A stretch of 64,000 nucleotides of DNA from Schmidtea nova (taxonomy: Eukaryota), in contig CM097883.1 in the NCBI GenBank assembly GCA_044892505.1, positions 46,252,001 through 46,316,000 of the forward strand. The letters run 5' to 3'. Of this stretch, positions 5,301 to 56,390 are shown in pieces. A program made the translations under genes and the position numbers. Each line of letters begins with the position of its first letter. Within the stretch, counting starts at the first letter, position 1. The notes below the pieces were generated by a model. It was not told where the DNA came from, did no database searches, and saw only the letters and a program-made list of their open reading frames with translations.

Positions 5301-6779
5301 GGGGAAAATTGACAGGGTAAATGAGATAATGTTCTGGAACTTGAAGAAGAAGAAAGAAGAGCAAAAATTCAGAAATGATAAAATACTAACCGAATAAAAG
5401 AAATCGAACAGTAAAGCAAGAAAATGTCATTGATAATTAATAAGTGCAAAAAGAGAAAAAGTAATTCAAAAATTGGAAAAACAAAAACAAGAGAAAATTT
5501 TATGTCATAAGAGATTGTCAGATATTTAAAGAGTGCTGAGAAAAAAGTCGAAACAACAAAAGAAAAAGAATGACATATCTAGACAGCTGTCAGAGATAAT
5601 GCAAAAGCCATGAAAGAAGTATTAAGTATGCTGAAGGCAAAGAAAAAAACAAAAATAATCTCAATTACCAGAGAATGACGAGTTCCTCCAGATATTTATA
5701 CTAAAATCAAGTTGATCTCACTTAATCAGCGCTGTTCAACCAATTTTAAGATTCAATTCAACAAGTCGATCAATTGGGTTATTTTTTATAAGTTTTAACT
5801 TATTCTCTTTGACTGAATTGTAATTCAACAATTTTTTATTGATTAATTTTAATTAATTTTGGTCATTTTAATCGGCTTTTTTGAATTTGACTGTGGCAAA
5901 TTTACTTATTTCTTCTATTTCTCTAATTTTTCAGTTATAATTTTTTTTAAATTTAGCATTTTCATTTTTTGTTTGGCTAGTAGGATTGAAAAAAAATTTT
6001 GTTTAAATGCATCACAAATTAAATGTATCCAAAAAGAACTGAATTCAAAGCGAACGATGTAGTAAAATAACACAAAAGAATTTAAAACACAAAAGTGCAA
6101 AGATTCGTCATACAAACCGCATTTCATAAGTCGGTCGAGATAAGGGTGAAACGATAGAGAATAGGCATCTCAGAAGAAATCACACAATTTCAGTTCAGGT
6201 CGAATTTACATACAAAAGGACAGCACGAGAGTTGAATAAAGAAAATCATTGGTTATATATTGAATACGAAAAGCATGATCAAAGAATAAAATTGGCATTA
6301 TAATTAAAAAAACAATTTATTAAAAATATTAGAAGAAATTCCCATTGAAATATCGTAAAAATAACAGAGATCTGAATGAAAATAGAATTGAAACTAAATT
6401 TGATTGCTTTAATAGTAGAGAAGGGGGAGCGCCCAAGAACAAGAACAGACCCCCCCAAAAAAAAATTTTTACCNNNNNNNNNNNNNNNNNNNNNNNNNNN
6501 NNNNNNNNNNNNNNNNNNNNNNNNNNNNNNNNNNNNNNNNNNNNNNNNNNNNNNNNNNNNNNNNNNNNNNNNNNNNNNNNNNNNNNNNNNNNNNNNNNNN
6601 NNNNNNNNNNNNNNNNNNNNNNNNNNNNNNNNNNNNNNNNNNNNNNNNNNNNNNNNNNNNNNNNNNNNNNNNNNNNNNNNNNNNNNNNNNNNNNNNNNNN
6701 NNNTGGATTTTTGAATACAATATTTTGATCTGGTTATTTTTGTAAAGGAATTTTACTCTGGTTATTTTGTATATGATTT

Positions 6780-7400
6780 TCTACTCCGAGATTTTTATCG
6801 GGCAGAAAAGAGACTCTGGTAATTTTGAACTGAAATTTTATTGGTAAATAAAAAACACGTGTAAATTTTTTTTAAACTAGTAAAATACATTGAAATTATT
6901 TTGAATATGATTTTCAACTCAGAGATTTTCTCGGTCAAAAAGGGACTCTGGGTTTTTTGTACATGAATTTTTGATCTAGATTTTTGAATACAATATTTTG
7001 GTCTGATATTTTGTAGTGTTTTTAGTCTCGTTATTTTGAATAGGATTTTCAATTCCCACATTTTTCTCGGGCAAAAAGGGACTCTAGGTTTTTTATACAT
7101 GAATTTTTGATCAGGATTTTTGATCTAGATTTTTGAATACAATATTTTGGTCTGATATTTTGTATAGGATTTTCTACTCCGAGATTTTTCTCGGGCAAAA
7201 AGGGACTCTGGTAATTTTGAACTGAAATTTTATTGGTAAATAAAAAACACGTGTAAATTTTTTAAACTAGTAAAATACATTGAAATTATTTTGTATAGGA
7301 TTTTCTACTCCGAGATTTTTCTCAGGCAAAAAGGGACTCTGGTAATTTTGAATATGATTTTTGATCTTGATTTTTAGTCTGGTATTTTTGAAAATAATAT
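6780..7400 (+). repeat. 131-bp subterminal tandem repeat in the left TIR (mirror at ~19408-19730)
   Basis: TACTCCGAGATTTTT..CGGGCA motif at 6782, 7175 and 7306; mirror CAAAATTACCAGAG at 19408, 19539 and 19670 (period 131). Confidence 0.8.
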
Positions 7401-7406
7401 TTTGGT

Positions 7407-7985
7407 CGGGGAAAATCAAAAAATTAAAAAGTGGTCAGAATTCAATAATTTTTATACAAATCTACTGAGAATTAAAAGGCAAACAATAATGGTCAAAAAT
7501 TAAAAAACATGAAAAATTGATCTTTTCCTACCAAATTTTTACATGTAAAAAGTGTCAACTCGGGGAATTTCCAAAAAATTAAAAATGATCAGAATCAAAT
7601 AATTTTTATACCAATCTACTGAAAATTGAATGGCGAACAAAAAAGGTTCAAAAAGTAAAAACATGAAAATTTTGACTTTTCCGACCCAATTTTTACAAGT
7701 AAAAATGGTCAACTCGGGGAAATTCCAAAAAATCAAAAATGCTCAGAATTCAATAATTTTTATACCAATCTACTGAGAATCGAATGGCGAACAAATAAGG
7801 GTCAAAAAGTAAAAACATGAAAATTTTGACTTTTCCGACCCAATTTTTACACGTAAAAATGGTCAACTCGGAGAAATTCCAAAAATTAAAAAGTTGTCAG
7901 AATTCAATAATTTTTATACCAATCTACTGAGAATTGAAAAGCGAACAATAAAGGTCAAAAAATTAAAATCATGAAAAAATCAAAA
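7407..7985 (+). repeat. 154-bp tandem repeat (~3.7 copies) in the left TIR (mirror at ~18775-19352)
   Basis: TCAGAAT..AATAATTTTTATAC motif at 7435, 7589, 7743 and 7897 (period 154). Confidence 0.85.
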
Positions 7986-9339
7986 TTTTATACGGGAAAT
8001 GACAGTCTCAGTAAAAAAGGGTAAAGTTCATAAAAACGTGGAAATATTTAAAATAAAAATTTTTAAACTAAATAATTAAATCTAAATAAATTTATGATAA
8101 TTAAATAAAAAAGTAAATAAATTCTATACGAATTTCAAAACTCAGTTAATAATTCACTCATTATTTTGTATTGAATTTATCAAGTAAAATGGTACATTAA
8201 ATAAAAGCATGGAAATAATAAGTAAATTAAAGTTAGAATTTAAAAATAATTTGTACTGAATTTATGAAAAATGGCAAAGTAAATAAATTAAAGATAGATG
8301 TTTAAAAATAATTATGAATTTAGTGATAAATAGAATTATAAGTAAATTAAGAATAAAAAAGTAAATTAAGAAAGTCGTGAGTTTTAATGTCATAATTTTA
8401 AAATGAATTGGTTTTAAAGGAACTTTTTAAGGTAATATTTGAAAATGTGAGAATAATTAATTATTTTTGAAATTTTTTAAAGTAAAATTTTTTAACAATA
8501 AAATCAATGTAAAATTTTTTAATTAATAAATACAAAGTAAACATTTTTTCACAAGTAAATATTTTTCACAAGTAAAGTTTTTAACTAATAAATACAAATC
8601 TAATTGTTTTTTCAATATAATGTTTTTTAAGGAAATGATCAAATAACAACAAATAAATGTAGTAAATAAAACACATGTAACTATTGAATTTATTTAGAAT
8701 AAAAATAGTTATTAAACAAGAGTTGTTACAATTTTGTATACTAAGTTAAAAAATATCGATTAATGACATAAATTTTTAAAAAATAAACGTAATAATTGGA
8801 AATATAGGAACAAGTAANNNNNNNNNNNNNNNNNNNNNNNNNNNNNNNNNNNNNNNNNNNNNNNNNNNNNNNNNNNNNNNNNNNNNNNNNNNNNNNNNNN
8901 NNNNNNNNNNNNNNNNNNNNNNNNNNNNNNNNNNNNNNNNNNNNNNNNNNNNNNNNNNNNNNNNNNNNNNNNNNNNNNNNNNNNNNNNNNNNNNNNNNNN
9001 NNNNNNNNNNNNNNNNNNNNNNNNNNNNNNNNNNNNNNNNNNNNNNNNNNNNNNNNNNNNNNNNNNNNNNNNNNNNNCTAAGTACCAGCAATAAACCGAT
9101 CAAATAACTAATAATCTCATTACACACACAAATCAACCACTGACTAGTAACTGATCAAATGCCAACTGACTCTATCCACAAATCAACAATCGACTAGTTA
9201 CTTACAAGTTACCAACTGACTCTATATATTAACCAACTAGGAAATTGTTCCATGTGACAATCACTTCCTATTGCCTATATATCAAATAATCCAATCCCCT
9301 TAGTTAAAAAATAGTACAATTCCTTACTTACTAACTTTA

Positions 9340-10020
9340 TCTATACTAACCAACTAACTATACATACTAACCAGCAACCAATACCTTACTAACCAACTAG
9401 TTCTATACATTAACCAACTAACTTTATTCACAAATCACCAACCAACTAACTAACTATACATACTAACCAGCAACCACTTCCTTACTAACCAACTAGTTCT
9501 ATACATCAACCAACTAACTTTATTCACAAATCACCAACCAACTAACTAACTATACATACTAACCAGCAACCACTTCCTTACTAACCAACTAGTTCTATAC
9601 ATCAACCAACTAACTCTTCACATTAACCAAGTAACTAACTAACTAGCTATACATACTAATCTCTTACTAACCAACTAGTTCTATACATCAACCAACTAAC
9701 TCTTCACATTAACCAAGTAACTAACTAACTAACTATACATACTAACCAGCAACTAATACCTTACTAACCAACTAGTTATATACATCAACTAACTAGTTCT
9801 ATCCATTAATCTTATACCTATCAGTCTACCAACCAACCAACTAACTACCTATACACACTAACCAGCAATCAATTCATTACTAACCAACTAGTTATATACA
9901 TTAACCAACTAGTTCTATACATTATTCTTGTACCAACCAACCAACTACACTAACCAACTATCTAGCTATACATACTAACCAACAACTAATCTCTTACTAA
10001 CCAACTAACTATTCATAAAT
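9340..10020 (-). repeat. Composite TTAG/TTGG minisatellite in the left TIR (mirror at ~16660-17440)
   Basis: AACCAACTAACT-rich plus strand, with higher-order units of ~86 and ~96 bp. Confidence 0.85.
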
Positions 10021-11033
10021 CAACAACAGACTAGTTAATTATTAAATATCAATTGATTCTATCCACAATCTACTAGTTAAATCAACTAATCGGATACCAA
10101 CTGACTCTATATATTAAACAAATAAATCTTCACTCTAAGGAAATTGTTCCACGTATTAATTAACTCTTCGCATTAACTAGATATGATATTTAAAACTATC
10201 TGATTCTAAATATCGTGTCATAAAATTAAATTTATTACTTTGAATAATTTAATTAATCTTTAGTTGATTATCAGTTTTCAAAAAGGTATACTAATATCTA
10301 CGTAGTTAAAATGAAATTTTTTATTAATTAAAGTTATTAAAATTTTGAATATATTTAAAATGCAAATGACTTTTAATACAAAGCTTTATTGAAATCATTG
10401 TTCATCTATTTCTTCACTTGATAACTAACATGTATAAGTAATTTAAAAATCATTATAAAAACTCTGTTAACTAGGTAAACATATTAAAATGATAAGTAAG
10501 CAACTAATGAAATATTTTTTGATACTTCTTATTACATGTCCAATTAAATTCTTCACTCCGATAATTTAAAAGAATAAATAAATAAATATTCAAATAATTC
10601 TAAAAATTAATAAAAATTAATTCAAAATTTCAATACAAATATTTATTTATTAAACATTTTTATTAACCATGCTAAACAGTACTACCAAATGTTTTTGTTA
10701 TTGGATTCTAGTATCAGATATATATATATATATATATATATATATCAAATTCAGAATTAATTATTGTTGCCGGGGAAATATTTAAGAAAATTAATTTGAA
10801 TTTTAATTTTAAACGTATAATCAATTAATAAAACAAAATCAATTTAGAATAATTATGATAATAAAATTAATTATTTTTATTTTAATAAAAAACTAATCGA
10901 TTTTAAATATTTGGTAATAAATTTAACACAAAAAATAATTGTTATTAAAAATTTAAATTAACCAAAACAAAAAATAAAATAAAATAAATAAATAAATAAA
11001 TAAAATGAAAAGATAAGATTTGATAAATAAATT

Positions 11034-11574
11034 TTATTCACATATATTTGTTTCTATAATTTTCCAAACAGGTTTGACAACATCATTAGATTCTTTGAAG
11101 CCTTGAATCATTATCTTAATTTGATATATTGAATTTTCATCGGGATTTTTCAAATTACAATCTTTATTGCAATTCATATACGTAAAAGCTTCATTAAATT
11201 GTATTTCTTTGTTGATTGCTAACAAAATTTCTGAAATATTTCGTCTATCAATATCTCCAATTTTCCCCACTTGAAGATTATACATGCATTGTGTCAATGT
11301 AACAGGTTCCTATAAAATAATTATTAGAAATTTATTTAAAATAAATAAATATATACTTTAAATGAATAAATGATTGGAAATTTTAAATATTCCATCGAGT
11401 ATTGTAGAAATTGAACTGCAGGATTCCTAACCAAATTTGATGCCGAAATAGAATTTTCTTCAAGAATAATTTTCATTACTTCTTGTTTCAACATCTTTTT
11501 GTTCGAAGTTTCTAGAATAAAATATTAAAAATAATCATTTAAAATTAATTAAACTTACTTTTAAGTTGATACAT
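11034..11574 (-). CDS. Predicted three-exon orphan gene, ~148 aa; exons 11574-11559, 11511-11357, 11309-11034
   Basis: Two 47-nt GT-AG introns (donors GTAAGT and GTATAT; acceptors TTCTAG and TTATAG) join three open exons in phase: MYQLKKTSNKKMLKQEVMKIILEENSISASNLVRNPAVQFLQYSMEYLKFPIIYSFKEPVTLTQCMYNLQ...IETNICE*. An inverted CCAAT box lies at ~11632. No family recognised. Confidence 0.65.
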
Positions 11575-11694
11575 TTTTAATGAAATCTGTAATTTTTAAT
11601 CAATTTATATATGTTTTCATAATTTAAATTGACCAATCAGATTTCGTTTAACATTTTTATTAATTTTTATTTATTGATATTTTTGTGTGCAGAT

Positions 11695-14600
11695 TAGGGT
11701 GGTCCTTAATTTTGAAAAGTTGAAATCCTGTGCTCCCACCTCATAGAATTGTTTGTTATTATGACAGGATGCTGTGCTAATTTTATTTTTATTTTTGGAT
11801 GATGTTTAGAGGTCGCCCAAGCTTTGGAATTGGAAATTCATCAAAATCGCTGCAAATGAGCTTCTAGAAACTATTTTTTATTTTCTCACTACTTATTTTG
11901 GTCAGTTCTGTTAGTTAGTTGATCCCAAACAATTAATTTAACCTCTAATAAATAATCTTTGTTGATCAATAATACTGTCTGATTAGGAATTTGCAGTTTT
12001 ATTAAGTTTTCTATGAAATGGCGTCATCCTTTTGGTGAGTAAACTTTTTCATGTGTTGTTTGTTTTAGCTGCTGCTTTGCCATTCAGAACATTCAGTTAT
12101 TATGCACTATTTGCCATTTTTTAGGCCAGAAAGTAAACATTCCACATGTAGACACAGTGACACACCAGTGTTAGTGTAATATTGTATTGTATGATATGTT
12201 GTTGTTGTGATGTAGTGAAGAATTTGATATAACAACACGAAGTCAAACTGCAGTTTATCTACTGGGTCAACCCACTACTGTGCTTTCTACTCTCAGACTT
12301 GCATCAAATGGTGAAGCATTGGGTTTGTTTTTCCATCACCACCTAACCCATGGTCTGCAGACACGACAGGCATCAGCACATGTGATCGAACAGGTGACTG
12401 GAATTTGGAACAAGGCCCGCATACCGACATGTCGCAAAGACCATGCAATCACCAAGCTGGAGCAACTATTCAAAGATTGGACACAGCTAAAAAAGCACAA
12501 AGATCGCAAGACAGAGCTCCATGTTGCCAGAGAAGATGAGTTTTGCGCCAAAATGAAGAATCTTTTTGACATTGCACATGCCGACGCCCTAACGACTATG
12601 AAGATCGAGGAAGATAGAGAATTTCTGCTGGCACAGCGAGAACCAGGACGACGAGGTTACCTTGGATTAGTTGATAGAGCATTAGCTGAAAAGGAAGAGA
12701 GAAAAGCAGTCAGAATAAACTTGGAGAGGAAGAGACGTGAAAGAGCAGAAAGCGAGGCATCCGTTAGCACAATGGTTGCAGGATTTGGCAGCAGTAGTGA
12801 AGATGACAATAAACCTGAATCGGACACAGATAAACCTGCTGAGTTCTCATCACCTCGCCGTAAGAAAAGCAGAGCAGCAACAAATGTGATTACCCCAAAG
12901 TTAGCAGCTGCCTTGGATCGTACCAAGTTGAGTGACAGAAAGGCTACGTTTGTCATTGCTGCGGCAGCTCAGAGCCTTGGGCATGATATTGATGAACTCA
13001 ATATAAATCGGAGTTCTATAAAGCGTCACCGCGAGAAATAAAGAGCTGAAATGGCAGCTGCATTAAAGGAAGATTTGTCTAGTGATGTTCCTTTGGTGGT
13101 ACATTGGGATGGCAAACTAATGGTCGATCTCACTGGGAAGGATCACGTTGATCGCCTCCCTATAATTGTGACCGGCTTTGGGGTGTGTCAGCTATTGAAG
13201 GTGAGCAAGATGTCTGGTGGAACAGGTGAGAACCAGTCATCTGCAGTGGTCCAGGCACTGAATGAGTGGAATGTGCAGGATCGTGTGGTAGGATTGTGCT
13301 TTGATGCAACTAGTTCCAACACTGGTATCCACAACGGTGCCTGTGTTCTGATAGAACAGAAGCTAGGCAAGGACTTACTACACTTTGCCTGTCGCCACCA
13401 CATTATAGAACTGTTGGCAGGAGCCGCATTTACAGTAAGTCTTGCACCATCATCTGCTCCTGAAGTCCTTCTGTTCAAGAGATTTCAACAAAAGTGGTCA
13501 ATCGTCGACCACAGTAACTACCAGACGGGAGCTAATTTGAATGAAATACCTGACGTGGTGAAGAACGAAGTAATGGAATTTGCACACAGGCAGCTGCTTC
13601 GTGACAACGTCCGAGATGACTACAGAGAATTCATTGAATTATCTATCATATTTCTTGGTGGCTTACCCCATCGTGGGATTCATTTTATGGCACCTGGTGC
13701 AATGCACCATGCGAGATGGATGTCGAAAGTGATCTACTCACTCAAAGTGTGGATGTTTCGCTCACAATTCAAGCTCACATCGTTCAAGGAGAAAGGACTT
13801 CTCCACATGTGCATCTTTGCAGTGGTTATATACCTCAAGGCCTGGTTCACTGCACCACTGGCTTCCAGTGCGCCTCGAAATGATCTGCAACTGCTTCAAG
13901 ATTTGCACAATTACAAGCGTTACAATGAGAAAATCTCTATCGTAACATCCAAAAAACTTGAGCATCATCTTTGGTATTTGTCGGAAGATTTAGTGGGTCT
14001 TGTCTTCTTCGATCCCGATGTACCGGTCGATACAAAACGTCAAATGGTGAAAGCACTGAATTACTGTAGCAAGGATGCCGTCGACAAAGTACTTCTACCA
14101 AAAGGTCTGAAACGCATCACAATGTCTGCAAGCAGTGCATGCAACTACAGTTTGGAGGATTTCATAACTGTCAGATCTCAGGAATTCTTTGATAAGCTCC
14201 ATATTTCTCAAGACTTCTTGAATTACGATCCTGACACTTGGGAAACTCGACAGGAGTACACAGATGGCATGTTGATCGTGTCTAAGCTACTAGTCACCAA
14301 TGATAATGCAGAACGTGGAGTTGCCCTTGTTCAGGAGCTAAACAAGTGTCTCACATACGATGAGGACCAGTTTCAGTTTCTGCTGCAAGTTGTGGCAGAC
14401 CATCGTCGTCAGTATGCAACCTGTCAGAAGTCGTTATTACATTGACTTAGTTGCGGAATGCGGAGTGCGGACATCGTCTTTGGTTGGACCGACTGACACT
14501 GACAGTCTAGAACATTTATTCCTATAAATAAATCTTAACAATAGATTCTGTACATTACGGAGTTTCATATTTCCTAGTCATTTAATAACATAATAAAACG

Positions 14601-14819
14601 TTACCAATTTCAGTTTAGTAATAAAAATACTATACTATGCTCAAGTCAAATTTTTTGGTCATTTTAATAAATTGTGAGCTGTTGGGCGACCTCTAAACAT
14701 TATCTGATCATTAAAAAAATTTGCACAGTATCTTATGGCATCAAATGGAACATTTTAAAAGGGTGGGAGACATCCAATTGTGAGAAAAAAATATTACCAT
14801 TGGTCTAAGGACCACCCTA
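11695..14819 (+). mobile_element. Full-length hAT-superfamily element (hATm-like), nested in the Polinton-type element
   Basis: Perfect 14-bp TIR TAGGGTGGTCCTTA / TAAGGACCACCCTA. Perfect 8-bp TSD GTGCAGAT (11687-11694 and 14820-14827). Internal inverted motif ATGTTTAGAGGTCGCCCAA near both ends. Confidence 0.92.
12018..14445 (+). pseudogene. hATm-like transposase, join(12018-12034, 12216-14445), with a single premature TAA at 13039-13041
   Basis: ATG GCG TCA TCC TTT TG|gtgagt ... tgtag|T GAA joins in frame (2247 nt, 749 codons). The two listed ORFs share one frame. Motifs HWDGK, CFDATSSNTG, ACRHHIIEL, WYLSE, VTNDNAERGV. Confidence 0.85.
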
Positions 14820-15224
14820 GTGCAGATACACACTTTATTTTAATATGATAATTAATTATTTTTGCAAAATCTTTTAATAGACAGATTATATCAAAAAATA
14901 ATGGAATGCATCGAATTACGATAAAAACTGTCACAATTCAATGAAAAGTTACTATACCCAAACAGTTAACTGCATCACATACATAATTTACCCTATGTGA
15001 ATAAATTGATTAGTTTTTCTTATTATATCAACTTTTATAAATTTTATAATGAACATTCGAAACAGATTTAATGTTACAAAATTATTACGTGGTAATAATA
15101 AAAATAATAAAAATATTAATATTAATAATTCACTGAAAATAATTAAAATGAAAAATCAATAAATATTTTGGTAAAAATCATTAATAACAATTATATTCAG
15201 TATCAGAACTTTTCTAATATAACC

Positions 15225-15827
15225 TTAGTAGCAGAACCTTTCTAGCAGAACCTTTCTAGCAGAACCTTTGGTAGCAGAACCTCTTTTGTGATGGTTTTTA
15301 CCTGTAAAAGATTCATCTTGTATATTCACTTATATACTATTATTGATACATTTTCATTAGATTTATCACCTAGCAGAACCTTTCTAGCAGAACCTTTGGT
15401 AGCAGAACCTCTTTTGTGATGGTTTTTACCTGTAAAAGATTCATCTTGTATATTCACTTATATACTATTATTGATACATTTTCATTAAATTTATCACGTA
15501 GCAGAACCTTTCTAACAGAACCTTTGGTAGCAGAACCTCTTTTGTGATGGTTTTTACCTGTAAAAGATTCATATTGTATATTCACTTATATACTATTATT
15601 GATACATTTTCATTAAATTTATCACGTAGCAGAACCTTTCTAGCAGAACCTTTGGTAACAGAACCTCTTTTGTGATGGTTTTTACCTGTAAAAGATTCAT
15701 ATTGTATATTCACTTATATACTATTATTGATACATTTTCATTAAATTTATCACGTAGCAGAACCTTTCTAGCAGAACCTTTGGTAGCAGAACCTCTTTTG
15801 TGATGGTTTTTACCTGTAAAAGATTCA
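15225..15827 (-). repeat. 128-bp tandem array (~4.7 copies) in the loop of the Polinton-type element
   Basis: TAGCAGAACC unit starts at 15371, 15499, 15627 and 15755 (period 128); internal 14-15 bp TAGCAGAACCTTT subrepeat. Confidence 0.92.
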
Positions 15828-15959
15828 AATTATATTTTCATGATTGCAGTTTATGTGAAACCCGATAAAATACACATGTTTGAACCAATTGGATTTTATT
15901 ATCCATCGCTATTGATGAAAAACATATCGTCAATGTTGATGTGAATTGGAAATAATAGA

Positions 15960-18900
15960 ATCTGATACTAGAATCCAATAACAAAAACATTTGGTAGTAC
16001 TGTTTAGCATGGTTAATAAAAATGTTTAATAAATAAATATTTGTATTGAAATTTTGAATTAATTTTTATTAATTTTTAGAATTATTTGAATATTTATTTA
16101 TTTATTCTTTTAAATTATCGGAGTGAAGAATTTAATTGGACATGTAATAAGAAGTATCAAAAAATATTTCATTAGTTGCTTACTTATCATTTTAATATGT
16201 TTACCTAGTTAACAGAGTTTTTATAATGATTTTTAAATTACTTATACATGTTAGTTATCAAGTGAAGAAATAGATGAACAATGATTTCAATAAAGCTTTG
16301 TATTAAAAGTCATTTGCATTTTAAATATATTCAAAATTTTAATAACTTTAATTAATAAAAAATTTCATTTTAACTACGTAGATATTAGTATACCTTTTTG
16401 AAAACTGATAATCAACTAAAGATTAATTAAATTATTCAAAGTAATAAATTTAATTTTATGACACGATATTTAGAATCAGTTAGTTTTAAATATATTATCT
16501 AGTTAATGCGAAGAGTTAATTGATACGTGGAACAATTTCCTTAGAGTGAAGATTTATTTGTTTAATATATAGAGTCAGTTGGTATCCGATTAGTTGATTT
16601 AACTAGTAGATTGTGGATAGAATCAATTGATATTTAATAATTAACTAGTCTGTTGTTGATTTATGAATAGTTAGTTGGTTAGTAAGAGATTAGTTGTTGG
16701 TTAGTATGTATAGCTAGATAGTTGGTTAGTGTAGTTGGTTGGTTGGTACAAGAATAATGTATAGAACTAGTTGGTTAATGTATATAACTAGTTGGTTAGT
16801 AATGAATTGATTGCTGGTTAGTGTGTATAGGTAGTTAGTTGGTTGGTTGGTAGACTGATAGGTATAAGATTAATGGATAGAACTAGTTAGTTGATGTATA
16901 TAACTAGTTGGTTAGTAAGGTATTAGTTGCTGGTTAGTATGTATAGTTAGTTAGTTAGTTACTTGGTTAATGTGAAGAGTTAGTTGGTTGATGTATAGAA
17001 CTAGTTGGTTAGTAAGAGATTAGTATGTATAGCTAGTTAGTTAGTTACTTGGTTAATGTGAAGAGTTAGTTGGTTGATGTATAGAACTAGTTGGTTAGTA
17101 AGGAAGTGGTTGCTGGTTAGTATGTATAGTTAGTTAGTTGGTTGGTGATTTGTGAATAAAGTTAGTTGGTTAATGTATAGAACTAGTTGGTTAGTAAGAG
17201 ATTAGTATGTATAGCTAGTTAGTTAGTTACTTGGTTAATGTGAAGAGTTAGTTGGTTGATGTATAGAACTAGTTGGTTAGTAAGGAAGTGGTTGCTGGTT
17301 AGTATGTATAGTTAGTTAGTTGGTTGGTGATTTTTGAATAAAGTTAGTTGGTTAATGTATAGAACTAGTTGGTTAGTAAGGTATTGGTTGCTGGTTAGTA
17401 TGTATAGTTAGTTGGTTAGTATAGATAAAGTTAGTAAGTAAGGAATTGTACTATTTTTTAACTAAGGGGATTGGATTATTTGATATATAGGCAATAGGAA
17501 GTGATTGTCACATGGAACAATTTCCTAGTTGGTTAATATATAGAGTCAGTTGGTAACTTGTAAGTAACTAGTCGATTGTTGATTTGTGGATAGAGTCAGT
17601 TGGCATTTGATCAGTTACTAGTCAGTGGTTGATTTGTGTGTGTAATGAGATTATTAGTTATTTGATCGGTTTATTGCTGGTACTTAGANNNNNNNNNNNN
17701 NNNNNNNNNNNNNNNNNNNNNNNNNNNNNNNNNNNNNNNNNNNNNNNNNNNNNNNNNNNNNNNNNNNNNNNNNNNNNNNNNNNNNNNNNNNNNNNNNNNN
17801 NNNNNNNNNNNNNNNNNNNNNNNNNNNNNNNNNNNNNNNNNNNNNNNNNNNNNNNNNNNNNNNNNNNNNNNNNNNNNNNNNNNNNNNNNNNNNNNNNNNN
17901 NNNNNNNNNNNNNNNNNNNNNNNNNNNNNNNNNNNNNNNNNNNNNNNNNNNNNNNNNNNNNNNNNNNNNNNTTTCCAATTATTACGTTTATTTTTAAAAA
18001 TTTATGTCATTAATCGATATTTTTTAACTTAGTATACAAAATTGTAACAACTCTTGTTTAAATAACTATTTTTATTCTAAATAAATTCAATAGTTACATG
18101 TGTTTTATTTACTACATTTATTTGTTGTTATTTGATCATTTCCTTAAAAAAACATTATATTGAAAAAACAATTAGATTTGTATTTATTAGTTAAAAATTT
18201 TACTTGTGAAAAAATGTTTACTTTGTATTTATTAATTAAAAAATTTTACATTGATTTTATTGTTAAAAAATTTTACTTTAAAAAATTTCAAAAATAATTA
18301 ATTATTCTCACATTTTCAAATATTACCTTAAAAAGTTCCTTTAAAACCAATTCATTTTAAAATTATGACATTAAAACTCACGACTTTCTTAATTTACTTT
18401 TTTATTCTTAATTTACTTATAATTCTATTTATCACTAAATTCATAATTATTTTTAAACATCTATCTTTAATTTATTTACTTTGCCATTTTTCATAAATTC
18501 AGTACAAATTATTTTTAAATTCTAACTTTAATTTACTTATTATTTCCATGCTTTTATTTAATGTACCATTTTACTTGATAAATTCAATACAAAATAATGA
18601 GTGAATTATTAACTGAGTTTTGAAATTCGTATAGAATTTATTTACTTTTTTATTTAATTATCATAAATTTATTTAGATTTAATTATTTAGTTTAAAAATT
18701 TTTATTTTAAATATTTCCACGTTTTTATGAACTTTACCCTTTTTTACTGAGACTGTCATTTCCCGTATAAAATTTTGATTTTTTCATGATTTTAATTTTT
18801 TGACCTTTATTGTTCGCTTTTCAATTCTCAGTAGATTGGTATAAAAATTATTGAATTCTGACAACTTTTTAATTTTTGGAATTTCTCCGAGTTGACCATT

Positions 18901-20098
18901 TTTACGTGTAAAAATTGGGTCGGAAAAGTCAAAATTTTCATGTTTTTACTTTTTGACCCTTATTTGTTCGCCATTCGATTCTCAGTAGATTGGTATAAAA
19001 ATTATTGAATTCTGAGCATTTTTGATTTTTTGGAATTTCCCCGAGTTGACCATTTTTACTTGTAAAAATTGGGTCGGAAAAGTCAAAATTTTCATGTTTT
19101 TACTTTTTGAACCTTTTTTGTTCGCCATTCAATTTTCAGTAGATTGGTATAAAAATTATTTGATTCTGATCATTTTTAATTTTTTGGAAATTCCCCGAGT
19201 TGACACTTTTTACATGTAAAAATTGGGTAGGAAAAGATCAATTTTTCATGTTTTTTAATTTTTGACCATTATTGTTTGCCTTTTAATTCTCAGTAGATTT
19301 GTATAAAAATTATTGAATTCTGACCACTTTTTAATTTTTTGATTTTCCCCGACCAAAATATTATTTTCAAAAATACCAGACTAAAAATCAAGATCAAAAA
19401 TCATATTCAAAATTACCAGAGTCCCTTTTTGCCTGAGAAAAATCTCGGAGTAGAAAATCCTATACAAAATAATTTCAATGTATTTTACTAGTTTAAAAAA
19501 TTTACACGTGTTTTTTATTTACCAATAAAATTTCAGTTCAAAATTACCAGAGTCCCTTTTTGCCCGAGAAAAATCTCGGAGTAGAAAATCCTATACAAAA
19601 TAATTTCAATGTATTTTACTAGTTTAAAAAATTTACACGTGTTTTTTATTTACCAATAAAATTTCAGTTCAAAATTACCAGAGTCTCTTTTCTGCCCGAT
19701 AAAAATCTCGGAGTAGAAAATCATATACAAAATAACCAGAGTAAAATTCCTTTACAAAAATAACCAGATCAAAATATTGTATTTCAAAAATCCAGATCAA
19801 AACATTAAAATAAATTAAATAAAAATAAATAAAAATTAATAATTAATATAAATTAATAAATAAATAAATAAATAAATAAATAAATTAATATAAAAATNNN
19901 NNNNNNNNNNNNNNNNNNNNNNNNNNNNNNNNNNNNNNNNNNNNNNNNNNNNNNNNNNNNNNNNNNNNNNNNNNNNNNNNNNNNNNNNNNNNNNNNNNNN
20001 NNNNNNNNNNNNNNNNNNNNNNNNNGGGGGTAAAAAAATTTTTTTTTGGGAGGGAGGGGGGGTCTGTTCCTGTTCTTAGGCGCTCCCCATTCTCTACT
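15960..20098 (-). repeat. Right TIR arm (~4.1 kb including two N-runs)
   Basis: Mirror of 6414-10719 wherever compared, apart from scattered substitutions and repeat-unit indels. Confidence 0.92.
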
Positions 20099-21535
20099 TT
20101 TAATCAATCAAGTAACGCATGCAAAAAGTGCATAAACACATTATTTAATAGAATTAAGAATAAATATTTAGAAAATAAATAAAATAAATTATAAAATTAA
20201 ATTTTTGGAAAATAAATAAATAATCATTTATTGAAATGAATAAGCTAAATAGTAAAATAAATATATGAATTATATTATTAATTTTTGCATTTAATGAATT
20301 GAATGCGCAGTCTTCATTTAGGATTAGTATAAATTGATGTTGCAAAATCATAATTTAACTTTTTAATTTTTACTTTTTGTTCAATTCTACCAGCCAGCCC
20401 CAGTGTTAATTGAATTTATTCAATGGAGTGAATCAAATGTAGGTTTTATGTTTTATTTTAGCTGTACTTTGAAATTTGTTAATAAACCTTTGAATTATAA
20501 TTTTTTGTTAAATATTATCATTCTCATTCAAATGATTCCTGGTTAAACTGATTTAGGAGGAGCTCTGTAAGTGCACACGCCACGAGTTCCCAATCGGTTA
20601 GAAGTGCTTGTACCGAACAGTTGATTATAGCCTTCGTGCAATCGTCTCCTCTAATTACATAGAATGGCGAGGAAAAATGAAAGTTAAGGTGTGTTATTTA
20701 GATACTTGTGAGAGTAATTAGGTGTATATTTTAAGTAAGATAAAGTGGTAGAAATCTAGGAATTAATAACGCGAAAAGACCGTAAAATAGATATCGGCAC
20801 GAAAAACCCAATAGAGAATATAGCGTGGAGTAGTTTGGCAACGAAGTTCCCTGCTCACTAGGATCTCGCCACCATATACATAACCAACATAGCACCAAGG
20901 AGTTACTATGGGTACACGAGTGAGTCAGTTAATATTTATGATGGGATGTGGGTTGTAGTAATCTCTAGAGACCAATAATAATAATTTCGTAACAGTCCAT
21001 ACACGCCAACATTATTTTCTGATCTTTCTTTTAATCTAGTTTAGTTGTTAGTTTTTGATTGATTTTGGCACTATTTTTCTTGCCTCTATTGGGTTATTTA
21101 AAATTAAAGAGGGTTCTATCCAAACACTTATATCTTTTTTAGAAATTTGTATTATTTTATTTTGTACTAAAAATATATAAATAAATATTGAAGTTAACAA
21201 AGGTTTGACACATCGCTTTCATGAAAATAATTTTTATAAATATTACTATAATGTATTCATAACAGTAAAAGAAATAATCACAAAAAGTCTTTTAAATATC
21301 TTAAGTCATGTGTAATTTGGATTATTTTGATTTTGAAATAATAAAATATATAAAAATACTAATCTATTATAATAGTTGTTTTACTTCTTGAAATGCAACA
21401 TTAATCAACTGTGGCATTTTAAAATAAAATTTTATTTGTAAATAAAATAATTTTTTTTGTGTTATTTTTAAACTATTATTTGTTTATTAAGTTTGAATTT
21501 TTCATTAAAAGTTGTTGATTTTTCTTCTTAAAGAC

Positions 21536-21847
21536 ATGCCAATTCATCGGCATTTAAAAAATGTTGTCAAAAATTACTCAGAAGCAGAACGCAAAGTCCG
21601 TGAAGCGACATCAAATGATCCATGGGGAGCTTCAAGCACACTTATGTCGGAAATAGCCGACATGACCTACAATGTTATGTATTTTGTCGATATTATGCAA
21701 ATGCTGTGGAAGAGATTGAATGATAAAAACAAAAATTGGCGTCATGTATACAAAGCACTGATGCTCATGGAATACATTATTAAAACCGGCAGTGAGAAAG
21801 TCGCAGCTCGCTGTCGGGAAAACATTCACACAATTGAAACTCTAAAA
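21536..21847 (+). CDS. EPN1: Epsin, coding exon 1 (ENTH domain)
   Basis: KNVVKNYSEAERKVREATSNDPWG...WKRLNDKNKNWRHVYKAL..LMEYIIKTGSE; followed by a 48-nt phase-0 intron, 21848-21895 (gttaaa...aatag). Confidence 0.95.
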
Positions 21848-21895
21848 GTTAAAATTTGCAATCATTTAACTGTAAATTTAAAAGGCATCCAATAG

Positions 21896-22375
21896 GATTT
21901 CCAATACGTTGAAGAGGGTAAAGATCTCGGTGTAAATGTGCGCGAACGAGCCAAAATGATTTGCGGGTTGCTGCGTGACTTTGATAGGTTGCAAGATGAG
22001 CGAATCAAAGCGTTGAAAGCGAAATCTCGATTGGCCAATTCGAATGTCGTGTCGTTCGGTTCCAATGGTTCAAGTAATGGAGCAATTGATCAACAGAAAC
22101 AGCGCTTGCAATCGTCACCAATTGGGATATCTAGTCTCATTCGAAGTGGATCTCTACCGACTCGATGCAAATCTCCCCAGAAAAATTTGTCCGAACGGCC
22201 ATTTCCAATTGTACTGGCTTGTCCACAGAGTGAGGGAGAGGAACACATTCAATTGCAGTTGGCGCTGGCAATCAGCAAGGAAGAGCACGAGCGGGAAATC
22301 GATAGGAGACGAGATGAGGATGCGAGAGAGCAAGCCAAAATTGAGATGGCATTGGAACAGAGCAGATTGGAGGAA
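21896..22375 (+). CDS. EPN1: Epsin, coding exon 2 (end of ENTH, two UIMs)
   Basis: DFQYVEEGKDLGVNVRERAK; UIMs EEEHIQLQLALAISKEE and AKIEMALEQSRLEE; donor GAA|gtgagc. Confidence 0.93.
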
Positions 22376-22669
22376 GTGAGCATTTAATATTTAATATTTA
22401 TTTATTAGTTTATTATCCCAATAGTTACTTTTTCATTGGAATTTTATTTACTTTAGTTTTTCATTTTTATCTATTTATTGTTTTAATTAATTAAAATATT
22501 TGATCAAGTTGTATTATTAATTTGTTTTATTAAATAATTCAACATTTCAATACAAGATGACACTATATTTAATTTTAGTTGATATTATTCTACTATTAAA
22601 AATAAATAATATAATTATGATAATAATAAATTATAATTTTAACTATTTCCATTGTTATCTCATTATGAT

Positions 22670-29799: not shown

Positions 29800-30225
29800 A
29801 AACACATTTAATTATTTTTCTTTAAAACTATCAATGGCAGCAACCAGCTTATTCCATCGAATAACCAAATCTTGAAATGAATCAGCAAAAAAATTGCCAG
29901 AGTGCATCTGATATCTCAAAATGATAGCCACGTAATGCTTTCTTTAGGTGCTTGAATAAAAAGAAGTCGCTCGGAGCAAGGTCCCAGTTGTATGGTGGGT
30001 GTTGGAGAAGTCTTAAACCACTCTTTTCTGTTGAACATCGATCATCATTGCTTGCATGGATAGGAGCATTATCAACAAGGAGCCAAAGTGGAACATTTCT
30101 TGATTTCCGTTTCTTTGCACGGCATATCTCAACCAATTTGGCATAGTTTTGACCATTTATTGCTTGTCCATTAGGCAAGAAGTCTAGGTGAAGGACTCCA
30201 TTTGTGTCCCAAAACACGTATTTAT
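29800..30225 (-). mobile_element. Mariner transposase 3' fragment
   Basis: VFWDTNGVLHLDFL, DNAPIH, HPPYNWDLAPSDFFLFKHLK. Confidence 0.85.
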
Positions 30226-51840: not shown

Positions 51841-54800
51841 TATTGGCCGGTCGTGGTTGAAAATGCCGTCTTTTTTAAATTTGTTTGTACCTGATAATTT
51901 AATTAATAAATTAAATAATGTTATTGAAACGATGGGAACTGTTAAAATTCAATTTTGCATCGAAGTTGAGTTTGAAAAAGATGGTGCTTTTCAAACTATA
52001 GTTATTTCTAACTCTGCACAACCTGTCACAGATACCTTTATAGACGATGGCATTAATATTATTAATGAAAAAATTACCCTAATTAATAATAGAGGTAGTA
52101 ATTGGATAATTAATAAAATTAATGAAATTCATTTTATATTAACAAAATTTTCTGAGATTAGTAGGTTAATAGGTTACGGTGGTATTGACACTCCTGAATC
52201 TTTAAAGTCAAAACATTGTGTTGTAAATGTTCAGAATTCTGATGACTTGTGCTTTATCTATTCTGTTTTGGTAATTATTAAATATGATGAGATATCTGGT
52301 CGTAAAAATAAACATAGGATCAGTAATTACAATCTTTCTGATGTTAACTTTAGTCCTTCTGATTTGCCTATGCGTCTTTGCAATATCCCAAAGTTTGAAG
52401 CTAAAAACCTGGGATATGCGATTAACGTACTTTCATATGATGAATCTGGAATTCTAGACACTAAGCCTGAAGTTTTCAAACATCCGTGTATTGACATAAT
52501 TCATAGGTCGAAAGTAGTAGACGGAATTCCTATTAACTTGATTCTTTAACAAAATAGTGACTCTTTTCATAATATATAGCAGTAACCAATCTTGATAGAC
52601 TTTTAAATCTTGACAATAAATCAATATCTGGTACTCGTATTCAAAGTTTATGGTGCCATCGATGCTTGAATGGGTTTAGATATCAAGATTCATTTGTTCG
52701 TCATCAAGAGTTGTGTTCTAAAAATCAATTAGGCACAACTCTATATACTTTACCTAAAAATCCTTATTTGACATTTAGTAATTGGGGCAAAACAATTACT
52801 CCACCTTTTGTAGTTTACGCCGATTTTGAGGCAATCTTACCTGCTGATGATAAGTACTTTCAAAGACATGTCCCAATATCTGCCGGTCTTTTACTTGTAA
52901 ATAATTTCACTGGAGAAAAGATTTACAAGAGTTTCTTAGGTCTTGATTGCGTTACTAATTTTCTTGCTGAAATTAACAATATAGGTGAAGAAATTGTTTT
53001 TCCTTTTTATAAAAACAATTACAAAAAACCGCTTATTATGACATTCGATAATAAAAGATCATTTGCCTCATCTACTATTTGTTATCTTTGTAAAAATCAT
53101 TTAGTTAATCCGGTTAGAGACCATGATCACTACACTGGTGAATTCTTGGGTGCTGCTTGTTTAAAATGTAATCTTACTAGACAGATTCGTAAGGAACTAC
53201 CGGTTGTTTTTTATAATTTAAAAGGGTATGACATGCACCATATTCTTAAATATGGATTGGCAAACTTTTCAACTTGGAAAATATCATGTATTCCAACTAC
53301 GAGTGAAAAATTCCTTACTTTGTCTGCAAGAGTCGGTGATTTAACAATTAAATTCATTGACTCTTGTCAATTTATTAACTCAAGTTTAAATGATGCGGTT
53401 AAAACATTGACTTCATTACCTTTAACGCGATCTGACTTCACTGGTACTATTGTTGATTGTAAGGGTATTTTTTCTTATAATTTTGCAACATCGTTAGAAG
53501 TCTTGAATGAAACATATGAATTACCACCAATCTGGGAGGGTGTTAAGCAGGCTGAATACGACAAGGCATTAGTTATTTGGAGGGAAACTAATTGTCAAAC
53601 TCTTTGTGACTACATGATGATATACTTAAAACTTGACGTCTTTCTTCTTGCTGACTTTTTCCAACAGTTTAGAGCCAAGTCAATTTCTCATAATAGGTTA
53701 GAACCGTTGAATTTCTTGGGTATTCCAGGTATGTCGTGGGCTTCTGCGCTTCTTACCTTGGAAGAACCTATTGAATTGCTCCAGGATATGGAGATGTATA
53801 ATTTTTTCGAAGGGGGGATCCGTGGTGGTTTGACATTTGTCAACAAGCATCATGTAGTATCCTCCGAAACGACTGAACTACTTTACATCGACATTAATAA
53901 TTTGTACGGTTGGGCCTTAAGCCAAAAATTACCTTGTGGTAAATTTAAATGGATTAATGCTGAGAAAAAATTAAATAAATTAATTAATTTGATGGATGCC
54001 GATTTGGAACTTTTAACAATCGGTGTAACATTTGAAGTTGACTTGGAAATCCCAGTTGAAATTCATGATAAATTAAATGACTTTCCAGTAGCGGCAGAAA
54101 GAATGTGTGCTCCCAATTCTAAAGTTGAAAAGTTAATGTTGACACATTATCCAAAGTTCAACTATGTTGTTCATTGGAGACTTCTCAAGCTTTTTGTTTC
54201 TTTGGGTGTTAAAATAACACGAGTTCATCGGGCTATTCAGTACAAACAGAAATCTATATTTAAAGAGTATATAGATACGAATACACGACTTAGGGCAGCT
54301 TCATCGTTTAATTGAGATAAAGATTTTTATAAGCTTTTAAATAATAGTCTTTACGGAAAAACTGTGGAAAATCTTAAGAAAAGATTAAATTTACGACTTT
54401 GTAATTCAGCATCAAAACTGATTACATATACATCAAAACCTACCTTTAGAAAAACTTATAGGATTGACGATGACCTAATTTCTGTCTAAGGACTCTGTGT
54501 GTTTAGATAGACCCAGCTACATTGGTCAAACTGTACTGGATTTATCTAAACTTAGGATGTATCAACTCCAGTATGAAGAATTGCAAAAATATCGCAATGA
54601 ATTCAACTGTAAGATTCATATAGTTGCAGGCGATACTGACTCTTTCTTCTTGGAGATTAAGAATTGTAGGTTAGATGTTCTGTTACCTGCGATGGTTAGA
54701 GATTATCTTTTGGATACATCGAATTACGACCCTAGTCATTCTTTATATTCGAAAAAACTTGATTCTGTTATAGGAAAGTTTTAAGACGAAAATAAGGGTC

Positions 54801-56390
54801 ATAAATATAAGGAATGGGTTTTTCTTAGACCTAAATGTTATAGCCTTTTAGGTGATAAGGAATGTTTAAAGGCTAAAGGCGTCTGTTTGAAAGATACTAA
54901 ACTGAAACATCGGTCTTATCTTGATTGTTATAGAAATAATACTATAGTTTCAGTAGAGCAGTCTGGATTTGTGAGTAAAAATCATCAAATTTTTACTAAT
55001 AAGTTTTCAAAAATTGCACTTACTAACCTCGATGATAAGAGACTTTGGGTTAAGAAAAATCAAAGTATTGCTTATGGACATTGTAGGGAAATTTTTACAG
55101 TTATGGGGGATTCAATTACCGAAGATGAAGATATTCAAGAAGATGACGAAGATGAAGATGAAGATTTATTTCAATAAATATTTGTATTTTATTTCTTTTT
55201 GTTCTTATTAATTATCTACTTTATTGTATTATTTAGACTGTGATAAAATAATAGTATTATTTTTAATTTCAAAGTTTTTATTNNNNNNNNNNNNNNNNNN
55301 NNNNNNNNNNNNNNNNNNNNNNNNNNNNNNNNNNNNNNNNNNNNNNNNNNNNNNNNNNNNNNNNNNNNNNNNNNNNNNNNNNNNNNNNNNNNNNNNNNNN
55401 NNNNNNNNNNNNNNNNNNNNNNNNNNNNNNNNNNNNNNNNNNNNNNNNNNNNNNNNNNNNNNNNNNNNNNNNNNNNNNNNNNNNNNNNNNNNNNNNNNNN
55501 NNNNNNNNNNNNNNNNNNNNNNNNNNNNNNNNNNNNNNNNNNNNNNNNNNNNNNNNNNNNNNNNNNNNNNNNNNNNNNNNNNNNNNNNNNNNNNNNNNNN
55601 NNNNNNNNNNNNNNNNNNNNNNNNNNNNNNNNNNNNNNNNNNNNNNNNNNNNNNNNNNNNNNNNNNNNNNNNNNNNNNNNNNNNNNNNNNNNNNNNNNNN
55701 NNNNNNNNNNNNNNNNNNNNNNNNNNNNNNNNNNNNNNNNNNNNNNNNNNNNNNNNNNTTCTAAGTTAATAATTATTATTATTCAAACCGAACCGAAAAT
55801 ATAAACATAAATTAATTTAAATAAAAATAAATATAAATTATTAAATATAAATTAATTAAAAATAAATATAAATTAATTAAAATAAATATAAATTTAAATT
55901 AAATTAAAATAAATAAATATAAATTAATAAAAATAAATTAAAAATAAAAATAAATTAAAATAAATTAATTAAAATAAATTAAAAATAATATAAATTAAAA
56001 ATAAATTAAAAATAAATTAAAATAAATTAAAAATAATTAAAAATAAATAAAAATAAATAAAAATAAATAAAAATAAATAAAAATAAAATAAAGACTTCAT
56101 TTAAACAAAATAATAAATTAAATTGACTTCATTTAAACAAAAAATTAAAATTAAAAAATTCACTTCATTTAAACAAAATTAAAAATATATCATTTAAACA
56201 AAATAATAAATTAAATTGACTTCATTTAAACAAAAAATTAAAATTAAAAAATTCACTTCATTTAAACAAAATTAAAAATTTAAAAAATTCACTTCATTTA
56301 AACAAAAAAAAATTTTTTAAGGGGGGTAAAAAATTTTTTTTAGGGGGAGGGGGGTCTGTTCCTGTTCTTGGGCGCTCCCCCTACTCTACT
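51841..56390 (+). mobile_element. Truncated Polinton/Maverick: pPolB plus right TIR
   Basis: pPolB remnant, an N-run, then an AT-rich TIR with GACTTCATTTAAACAAAA repeats, ending GGTCTGTTCCTGTTCTTGGGCGCTCCCCCTACTCTACT at 56390. Confidence 0.88.
51857..55177 (+). pseudogene. Protein-primed family B DNA polymerase (pPolB), about five lesions
   Basis: C2H2-like CHRCLN..F..H; ExoI YADFE; endonuclease-VII-like CYLC..RDHDH..ACLKCN; ExoII YNLKGYD; ExoIII YLKLDV; polymerase motifs DINNLYG, KLLNNSLYGK, GDTDS; RPKCYS; KAKGV. Stops at 52547, 54313 and 54782; frameshifts near 52575 and 54490. Confidence 0.92.

What the first reader, a model, noticed from the sequence alone, without database searches (positions are those of the whole stretch)
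6414..20098. Giant-TIR non-autonomous element with Polinton termini and no Polinton genes
Seen: a 13,685-bp unit with AG...CT ends, a perfect 6-bp TSD (TTTAAT) and ~4.2 kb TIRs. Removing the nested hAT leaves ~10.5 kb, about 80% of it TIR. No pPolB, integrase, ATPase, protease or capsid ORF is visible. Its outer ~70 bp (AGTAGAG.AGGGGGAGCGCCCAAGAACAGGAACAGACCCCCC..AAAAAAAATTTTTTACCCCC) match the end of the pPolB-carrying Polinton at 56390, but the deeper TIR sequences differ. Established: Polintons have AG...CT termini, 6-bp TSDs and protein-primed replication, with TIRs usually well under this size. Inference: a satellite-like parasite that keeps only the terminal origin/integrase site and is mobilised in trans, carrying its own cargo. 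This is the best candidate for an undescribed system in the window.
Basis: partly seen in the sequence, partly recalled or inferred. Interest (0 to 1): 0.88.

Follow-up and report, generated by a model that had tools for sequence, protein, structure and literature searches.

The report
Palindromic hitch-hiker of a Polinton
This is a real copy of a family of over a thousand jumping elements that are giant DNA palindromes with the same ends as a virus-like Polinton transposon in this animal genome; they lack working copying and insertion genes, so they likely borrow them from the Polinton, and this copy has likely lost the middle of one arm after it inserted.

Summary
Structure confirmed: 13,685 bp, AG…CT ends, TTTAAT duplication, ~4.2-kb arms, nested 3.1-kb hAT-like insertion. 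Two first-reader claims fail. The loop is not cargo, and Polinton genes are present: an open spliced 148-codon gene (63-76% identical to a helper gene), a pPolB stub and a protease fragment. The unit is one of roughly 1,400 loci. In a positional sample, 40 of 55 have two arms and 18 are near-perfect palindromes (sized copies ~13 kb), mostly centred on one 34-bp perfect palindrome (971 exact sites). Lopsided copies like this one have one arm cut back from that centre; 3 of 3 junctions tested are unique. About 1,340 helper-type polymerase starts occur; full helpers (15-15.5 kb) have intact capsid, ATPase and integrase genes and identical ends. A second, independent pPolB-carrying palindrome family measures 13.5-14.0 kb. 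Best reading: a snap-back defective Polinton replicated and integrated in trans. Arm identity is at least partly kept by conversion in place, so hairpin replication and capsid size selection remain inferred. My literature searches found no such family; this scan noted similar ones in other genomes.

The parts
6408..6413 (+). left target-site duplication TTTAAT
6414..20098 (.). whole element (lopsided copy of a palindromic non-autonomous Polinton family)
6414..6473 (+). left Polinton terminus (2 differences from the helper in the first 38 bp)
6414..10719 (+). left arm, truncated on its inner side; junction 24-mer unique in the genome
6736..7375 (+). 131-136-bp tandem repeats (mirror 19406-19775)
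7406..7977 (+). 154-bp tandem repeats, 3.7 copies (mirror 18781-19352)
9317..10007 (+). CTAA/ACC-rich 86-116-bp repeats (mirror 16672-17435)
10718..10769 (.). (AT)14 plus the surviving half of the family's central palindrome; deletion junction
11034..11309 (-). gene X exon 3 (91 codons + stop), 63-64% aa identical to the helper's gene
11357..11511 (-). gene X exon 2, 76% aa identical to the helper's gene; flanked by 47-nt GT-AG introns
11559..11574 (-). gene X exon 1 with start codon
11695..14819 (+). nested DNA transposon with 8-bp duplication (11687-11694, 14820-14827); frame 12211-14445 has one in-frame stop; hAT/hATm label is recalled, no Pfam hit
   Evidence: insertion-free join seen in contigs of other runs
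14905..14994 (+). decayed stub of the pPolB N-terminus (43% over 30 aa)
15243..15840 (+). 128-bp tandem repeats, 4.7 copies
15843..15995 (+). broken fragment of the Polinton cysteine protease (61% over 51 aa, E 1.8e-19)
15960..20098 (-). paired part of the right arm (the full right half runs 20098 to ~10720)
20026..20098 (-). right Polinton terminus
20099..20104 (+). right target-site duplication TTTAAT
51880..56390 (+). context: truncated helper-type Polinton end with a broken pPolB and the same terminus

Best explanation
The element is one copy of a family of giant DNA palindromes with Polinton ends and no working polymerase, integrase or capsid gene, which likely arose as a snap-back defective Polinton and is likely copied and inserted by the 15-kb helper Polinton; this copy likely lost the inner 2.1 kb of its left arm after insertion. 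Shown: the family, the shared perfect centre, helper-type ends, 6-bp duplications, retained Polinton genes, the helper itself, and one conversion tract between arms. Inferred steps: (1) a ~6.5-kb deletion derivative of an older Polinton lineage folded back by polymerase template switching; (2) a displaced strand snaps into a long hairpin whose duplex end is primed again by the helper's protein-primed polymerase, regenerating a duplex palindrome; (3) the helper integrase inserts it; (4) in the chromosome, cruciform breaks at the centre delete one or both inner arms, arms convert each other, and other transposons insert. Selection for a packageable ~13-14-kb size is possible (about 0.3) but not needed for the rest.
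For: Arm marker 2,516 exact hits; first 100 = 57 loci, scaling to ~1,400. Of 55 of those loci examined, 40 show two substantial arms and 18 are near-symmetric (one row reclassified by hand). 34-bp centre at 971 sites; the centre folds to a 4-nt-loop hairpin. In lopsided copies that keep the centre, the break lies in or next to it and the junctions differ; 3 of 3 tested are single-copy genome-wide. 24 of 24 duplications distinct, 20 perfect; first 38 bp often identical to the helper. Helper: 1,342 pPolB-start hits, rve, A32 ATPase, C5 protease, double jelly-roll capsid. Repeat copy numbers and a 5.8-kb triplication are mirrored in both arms. A second palindrome family with other ends measures 13.5-14.0 kb. 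Precedent for template switching and hairpin derivatives in protein-primed replicons.
Against: Arm identity (median 0.35% within vs 3.0% between copies) does not prove hairpin replication: one of three segmental duplicates shows a conversion tract in place, and the outermost 38 bp differ more between arms (27 of 722 sites, one slipped row dropped) than inner DNA (0.55%). One-armed 7.3-kb copies with perfect duplications exist. A 38.6-kb palindrome with a perfect duplication argues against a strict size ceiling. No free or hairpin DNA was observed. Only three junctions were tested for uniqueness, by exact match.
Confidence: 0.7

Rival explanations
1. The palindrome is the mobile form, but it moves by integrase-driven excision and reinsertion (Foldback/Galileo-like), with no hairpin replication; symmetry is kept only by gene conversion in the chromosome.
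For: Conversion tract of at least 129 bp (3 substitutions and a 17-bp indel) in 1 of 3 duplicates whose flanks differ at 1 of 8,892 bases. Termini more diverged than inner arms. One copy with a decayed duplication shares four private terminal changes in both arms.
Against: Short tracts do not readily explain a 5.8-kb unit triplicated in both arms or a spacer-free centre at 971 sites despite frequent centre loss. Does not explain how the palindromes first arose, twice.
Confidence: 0.15
2. A ~7-kb one-armed non-autonomous Polinton is the mobile form; the second arm is built after insertion by TIR extension, as described for Galileo.
For: Two 7.3-kb one-armed copies with perfect duplications and helper-identical ends. 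Galileo recruits internal sequence into TIRs (PMC3573991 section 7).
Against: Independent extension should give locus-specific centres for the symmetric copies. The reverse is seen: symmetric copies share one centre and lopsided ones have private junctions. One-armed copies still carry the central palindrome.
Confidence: 0.1
3. One reading: a satellite with fixed ~4.2-kb TIRs, no Polinton genes and its own cargo.
For: One close sibling (10,722 bp, duplication AAAGAC) also has ~4.4-kb arms.
Against: That sibling's left arm ends ~280 bp earlier; arm lengths run from 65 bp to ~6.5 kb; the loop is Polinton-derived.
Confidence: 0.04
4. Assembly artefact (fold-back reads).
For: Independent contigs do not span the junction; no piece covers the whole stretch.
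Against: Distinct perfect duplications and unique flanks at many loci; arms differ by indels and repeat numbers; family sequence on both sides of the junction is present in contigs of other runs.
Confidence: 0.01

Closest known systems
Autonomous Polintons/Mavericks
   Same: AG...CT ends, 6-bp duplication, TIRs; ends and three gene traces shared with the resident helper.
   Different: No working pPolB, integrase, ATPase, protease or capsid; intact form is ~95-100% palindrome. Reported TIRs are far shorter (584 bp in PMC3014272; 744 bp in bioRxiv 2024.01.15.575659; ~2 kb with genes in bioRxiv 2025.02.07.637071; passages read).
Hairpin/palindromic deletion derivatives of protein-primed replicons (kalilo derivative, yeast hairpin plasmid, phi29 subgenomic DNAs)
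   Same: Defective end fragments of a protein-primed genome; template switching; hairpin and duplex forms (titles in reference lists; phi29 passage).
   Different: Those are free molecules. This one integrates with duplications, reaches ~1,400 loci and forms a lasting family.
Undersized helper-dependent adenovirus vectors
   Same: Genomes under ~27 kb multimerise or rearrange to packageable size (PMC3717718 passage); here two families sit at about 86-93% of helper length.
   Different: Engineered and non-integrating; packaging of this element is untested, and a 38.6-kb copy exists.
Foldback/Galileo long-TIR transposons
   Same: Long internally repetitive TIRs of variable length, longest in non-autonomous copies, exchange between copies (PMC3573991 abstract and section 7).
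   Different: P-superfamily cut-and-paste with TIRs up to ~1.26 kb; here Polinton ends, arms to ~6.5 kb meeting at a shared perfect centre.

Membership tests
Polinton/Maverick (autonomous) | TIRs with AG...CT end motif | tested here: met
Polinton/Maverick (autonomous) | 6-bp target-site duplication | tested here: met
   TTTAAT; 20 of 24 copies perfect
Polinton/Maverick (autonomous) | intact pPolB and rve integrase | tested here: not met
   only a 30-aa pPolB stub, no integrase
Polinton/Maverick (autonomous) | ATPase, protease, capsid genes | tested here: not met
   broken 51-aa protease fragment only
Non-autonomous Polinton derivative | ends shared with a coexisting autonomous element | tested here: met
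   first 38 bp identical in many copies; ~490 bp at 86%
Non-autonomous Polinton derivative | descent from a Polinton (internal homology) | tested here: met
   gene X, pPolB stub, protease fragment
Non-autonomous Polinton derivative | many independent insertions | tested here: met
Non-autonomous Polinton derivative | mobilisation by helper proteins | not testable with these tools
   inferred from ends and duplications
Snap-back defective genome | one genome end plus its inverted copy meeting at a fold-back point | tested here: met
   18 of 55 loci near-symmetric; shared centre at 971 sites
Snap-back defective genome | free hairpin replicative form | not testable with these tools
   only integrated copies and contigs available
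Snap-back defective genome | packaging in helper capsids / interference with helper | tested here: inconclusive
   sizes 12.5-13.8 kb (8 copies) and 13.5-14.0 kb (3 copies) vs helper 15.0-15.5 kb; counter-example 38.6 kb
Foldback/Galileo | P-type transposase and its ends | tested here: not met
   ends and duplication length are Polinton-type

The most novel reading that the evidence does not exclude
Animal Polintons breed integrating snap-back satellites: half-size defective genomes double into ~13-14-kb palindromes because only near-helper-length DNA is packaged, replicate as self-priming hairpins on the helper's machinery, and here match the helper in copy number. Two independent families converging on ~86-93% of helper length would be a genomic footprint of a virion stage in an animal Polinton.
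Probability: 0.3. Interest if true: 0.88.

Novelty: new variant of a known kind. Interest (0 to 1): 0.7.

Why it matters
Polinton replication has been modelled but not shown in animals, and the vertebrate survey read here states that particles have not been observed (PMC8097293 abstract). A genome with ~1,340 helper copies and ~1,400 palindromic hitch-hikers gives abundant targets to look for hairpin intermediates and packaged DNA. It also supplies over a thousand natural multi-kb palindromes at different stages of centre loss and arm conversion, a ready system for studying palindrome stability in an animal germ line. Surveys that require pPolB plus integrase would miss these families entirely.

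Tried and rejected
Function of gene X: no Pfam or PHROG family; no hit in two word-index searches; one real homologue, an unnamed 77-aa piece at 60%, among 4 hits; atlas uninformative; best solved-structure hits E 0.06-0.17 (kinesin, Z-DNA-binding domains), not significant; exon-3 model pLDDT 49 with no fold match at E 0.001. The single-stranded-DNA-binding idea taken from an earlier scan note is neither supported nor excluded; only exon 3 could be folded. Expression: no RNA holder listed; contigs showed no intron-skipping joints and cannot show expression. The automatic loop-length script mis-assigned several loci, so I used landmark maps instead. The idea that the 10.7-kb sibling shares this copy's junction was rejected. 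The idea that 0.5-kb paired termini are mini-elements with duplications was rejected: their flanks are inverted. Kapitonov and Jurka 2006, Parks and Graham 1997, Kikuchi 1985 and a phi29 in-vitro evolution paper were not held. The host was not identified.
Full report
OBSERVATION. The unit 6414-20098 begins AGTAGAG, ends CTCTACT and is flanked by TTTAAT on both sides. Self-comparison gives inverted arms 6414-10719 and 15960-20098; unique inner stretches differ at 0 of 267 and 4 of 683 sites, the repeat-rich outer stretch at 61 of 1,816. A 3.1-kb element with an 8-bp duplication sits at 11695-14819; contigs of three other runs show the join without it. Its hAT label is recalled from the TIR, duplication length and an HWDGK motif; Pfam gave no hit. 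Without it the unit is 10,552 bp, 80% paired. The four N stretches inside are 128-283 bases and cannot hide a core gene.

THE HELPER. The terminal 30-mer has 5,057 exact hits in the 1.25-Gb genome. Pairs 15.0-15.5 kb apart are full Polintons: four of the five examined keep most long frames open and one is more broken. One copy carries rve integrase, A32-type ATPase, C5 protease, PX-like and TBP-like genes and a 408-aa protein that folds at pLDDT 92 into a double jelly-roll matching iridovirus, PBCV-1 and mavirus capsids at E 1e-16 to 1e-13. Its 1,309-aa frame did not score as DNA_pol_B_2, but the related window frame did (E 8e-26). A 27-mer at this polymerase's start has 1,342 hits.

POLINTON GENES ARE PRESENT. 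tblastx against that helper finds three traces in the loop. Gene X: three exons on the minus strand (11574-11034), two 47-nt GT-AG introns, 148 codons, open; exon 2 is 76% and exon 3 63-64% identical to a gene with the same intron pattern beside the helper's pPolB. A pPolB N-terminal stub (14905-14994). A broken protease fragment (15843-15995, 61% over 51 aa). Between this copy and the helper, exon 3 has pS 0.75 and pN 0.17: an old split under purifying selection, so the family descends from an older lineage while carrying present-day helper ends. Among family arms, 37 of 38 full-length exon 2 and 35 of 38 full-length exon 3 copies are open, variants lean synonymous (12 of 36, p 0.027), but 24 of 62 and 27 of 65 hits are partial, so many copies have lost the gene. 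Its function was not established.

THE FAMILY IS A PALINDROME. An arm 30-mer has 2,516 exact hits; the first 100 form 57 loci, about 1,400 genome-wide by scaling. I mapped landmarks in 55 of the 57; the other two are tandem duplicates of one of them. The script called 19 near-symmetric, 10 lopsided with the centre kept, 11 with the centre lost, 4 with a short second arm and 11 with one arm seen (many limited by the 10-kb fetch or truncated). By hand one 'symmetric' row (L047) is lopsided, giving 18 and 11; 40 of 55 have two substantial arms. Most symmetric copies meet at one ~60-bp perfect palindrome, or at two of them around an AT-rich palindromic spacer; two have lost it. Its 34-bp core occurs at 971 sites. 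Eight near-symmetric copies bounded by duplications measure 12,526-13,769 bp. In lopsided copies one break lies in or beside the centre and the other anywhere in the arm; three junctions searched, including this one, each occur once. This window copy is a complete right half plus a left half cut back from the centre by ~2.1 kb. One-sided central deletion is how cells stabilise palindromes (PMC8701086, passages). Of 24 copies with both ends found, all 24 duplications differ and 20 are perfect.

ARM IDENTITY, FOR AND AGAINST. Arms of one copy differ by a median 0.35% against 3.0% between copies; the partner arm is nearest in 27 of 38, 13 of 15 and 25 of 30 pairs for three segments. Large features are mirrored too: repeat numbers, and a 38.6-kb copy with duplication TTGGCG has a 5.8-kb unit three times in each arm. 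This fits copying of one arm from the other. But conversion in place also occurs: of three segmental duplicates of one insertion, whose flanks differ at 1 of 8,892 bases, one has its left arm changed to the right-arm state over at least 129 bp (an assembly error is not excluded). The outermost 38 bp differ at 27 of 722 sites in 19 copies (one row with a 1-base slip dropped) against 0.55% inside. Arm identity therefore cannot date insertions or prove hairpin replication.

A SECOND FAMILY. Elements with a different end (AGTAGGGGAAAG, 26 exact hits) carry a divergent pPolB in both arms: 13,524, 13,636 and 14,005 bp, arms 6.6-6.8 kb at 99.4-99.9%, each with a 6-bp duplication. Two 26.8-kb copies hold nested insertions; two further copies (15.1 and 17.5 kb) were fetched but their output was swamped by repeats and I did not classify them. 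A helper-type pPolB end folded back on itself was also seen. Fold-back thus recurs in this genome's Polintons.

MECHANISM. Shown: family, ends, duplications, centre, gene traces, helper, one conversion tract. Inferred: a ~6.5-kb derivative folded back by template switching; strand displacement yields a single strand that snaps into a hairpin whose duplex end is primed again; the helper integrase inserts the duplex palindrome; the host then erodes the centre. phi29 makes subgenomic end fragments by template switching (PMC4974454, passage); hairpin derivatives of a kalilo and a yeast linear plasmid are known to me from titles in reference lists only. Size selection is the boldest step: undersized adenovirus vectors multimerise to packageable length (PMC3717718, passage), vertebrate Mavericks vary ~10% in size (PMC8097293, passages), and both families here sit at about 86-93% of helper length. 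The 38.6-kb copy and the common ancestry within each family weaken this.

WHAT IS KNOWN. That non-autonomous Polintons were noted in the 2006 description is recalled; that paper was not held. Ten searches, eight of them pairing Polinton/Maverick or protein priming with non-autonomous, palindrome, snap-back, foldback, defective interfering, satellite, inverted duplication or a guessed host group, listed no paper describing a palindromic Polinton family; I saw listings and abstract starts, and read passages in 13 papers. Nearest: ~2-kb gene-bearing TIRs in butterfly polintons (bioRxiv 2025.02.07.637071), 52-nt terminal palindromes in protist virophages (bioRxiv 2026.07.28.741278), Galileo TIR extension to 1.26 kb (PMC3573991). 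Passages of PMC6431247, PMC3014272, PMC4028283, PMC11161782, PMC4443254 and bioRxiv 2024.01.15.575659 showed none. Repbase, subscription journals and supplements were not seen and may hold such entries. This scan's unchecked notes describe similar palindromes in other genomes, none in this one; I reached my reading before seeing them.

VERDICT. New variant of a known kind; interest 0.7.

Noticed in passing
G000:C1:182452399-182465922, C1:261070252-261084256, C1:15463115-15476750 (L130-L133, L123/L036/L124): Second giant-palindrome family with its own AGTAGGGGAAAG ends, a divergent pPolB in each arm (open 1,244/1,241 aa in the copy at C1:13.31 Mb) and a ~0.4-0.5-kb centre.
   Followed up: partly
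G000:C1:43053157-43091724 (L101-L105): 38.6-kb palindrome of this family, three nearly identical 5.8-kb units per arm, perfect duplication TTGGCG.
   Followed up: partly
L034, L035, L036 and about 500 further sites: A 0.5-0.9-kb inverted-repeat cassette, holding two inward-facing helper termini in the three copies read; it forms the centre of the second family and also occurs widely; possibly a MITE.
   Followed up: partly
L023/L024 (C1:7079009-7092705): 13.7-kb chimera with one duplication: a folded-back helper pPolB end joined to an arm of this family, so helper and satellite recombine.
   Followed up: partly
L030 (C1:15618658-15626915): 8.3-kb helper deletion derivative keeping an open pPolB frame and gene X, ~1-kb TIRs, perfect duplication.
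   Followed up: no
L037/L038: The helper has spliceosomal-type introns (gene X, protease, integrase) and a TBP-like gene; vertebrate Mavericks were reported intronless (PMC8097293).
   Followed up: no
L125 (C1:8556001-8562000): A further Polinton lineage with a different terminus and diverged ATPase, integrase and minor capsid lies beside a second-family copy.
   Followed up: no
L099, L106, L107 (C1:24.02-24.07 Mb): Three 20-kb tandem segmental duplicates of one insertion; one shows a conversion tract between arms.
   Followed up: yes
L142 (C1:29261600-29271599): A family copy with inverted rather than direct flanks, between mirrored helper ATPase sequence.
   Followed up: no
window 49920-51880 and 51880-56390: Gypsy-like pol (RNase H, integrase) on the minus strand abuts the truncated helper-type pPolB end.
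   Followed up: no
window 21509-22387: ENTH-domain (epsin-like) intronless frames with a stop, 1.4 kb from the element; possibly a retrocopy.
   Followed up: no
window 22943-23470, 29882-30259, 56834-57358: MULE and mariner/Tc1 transposase fragments.
   Followed up: no
listing: Gene X exon 3 often occurs as convergent pairs 1-2.3 kb apart across the centre; read-through would give long hairpin RNA.
   Followed up: no
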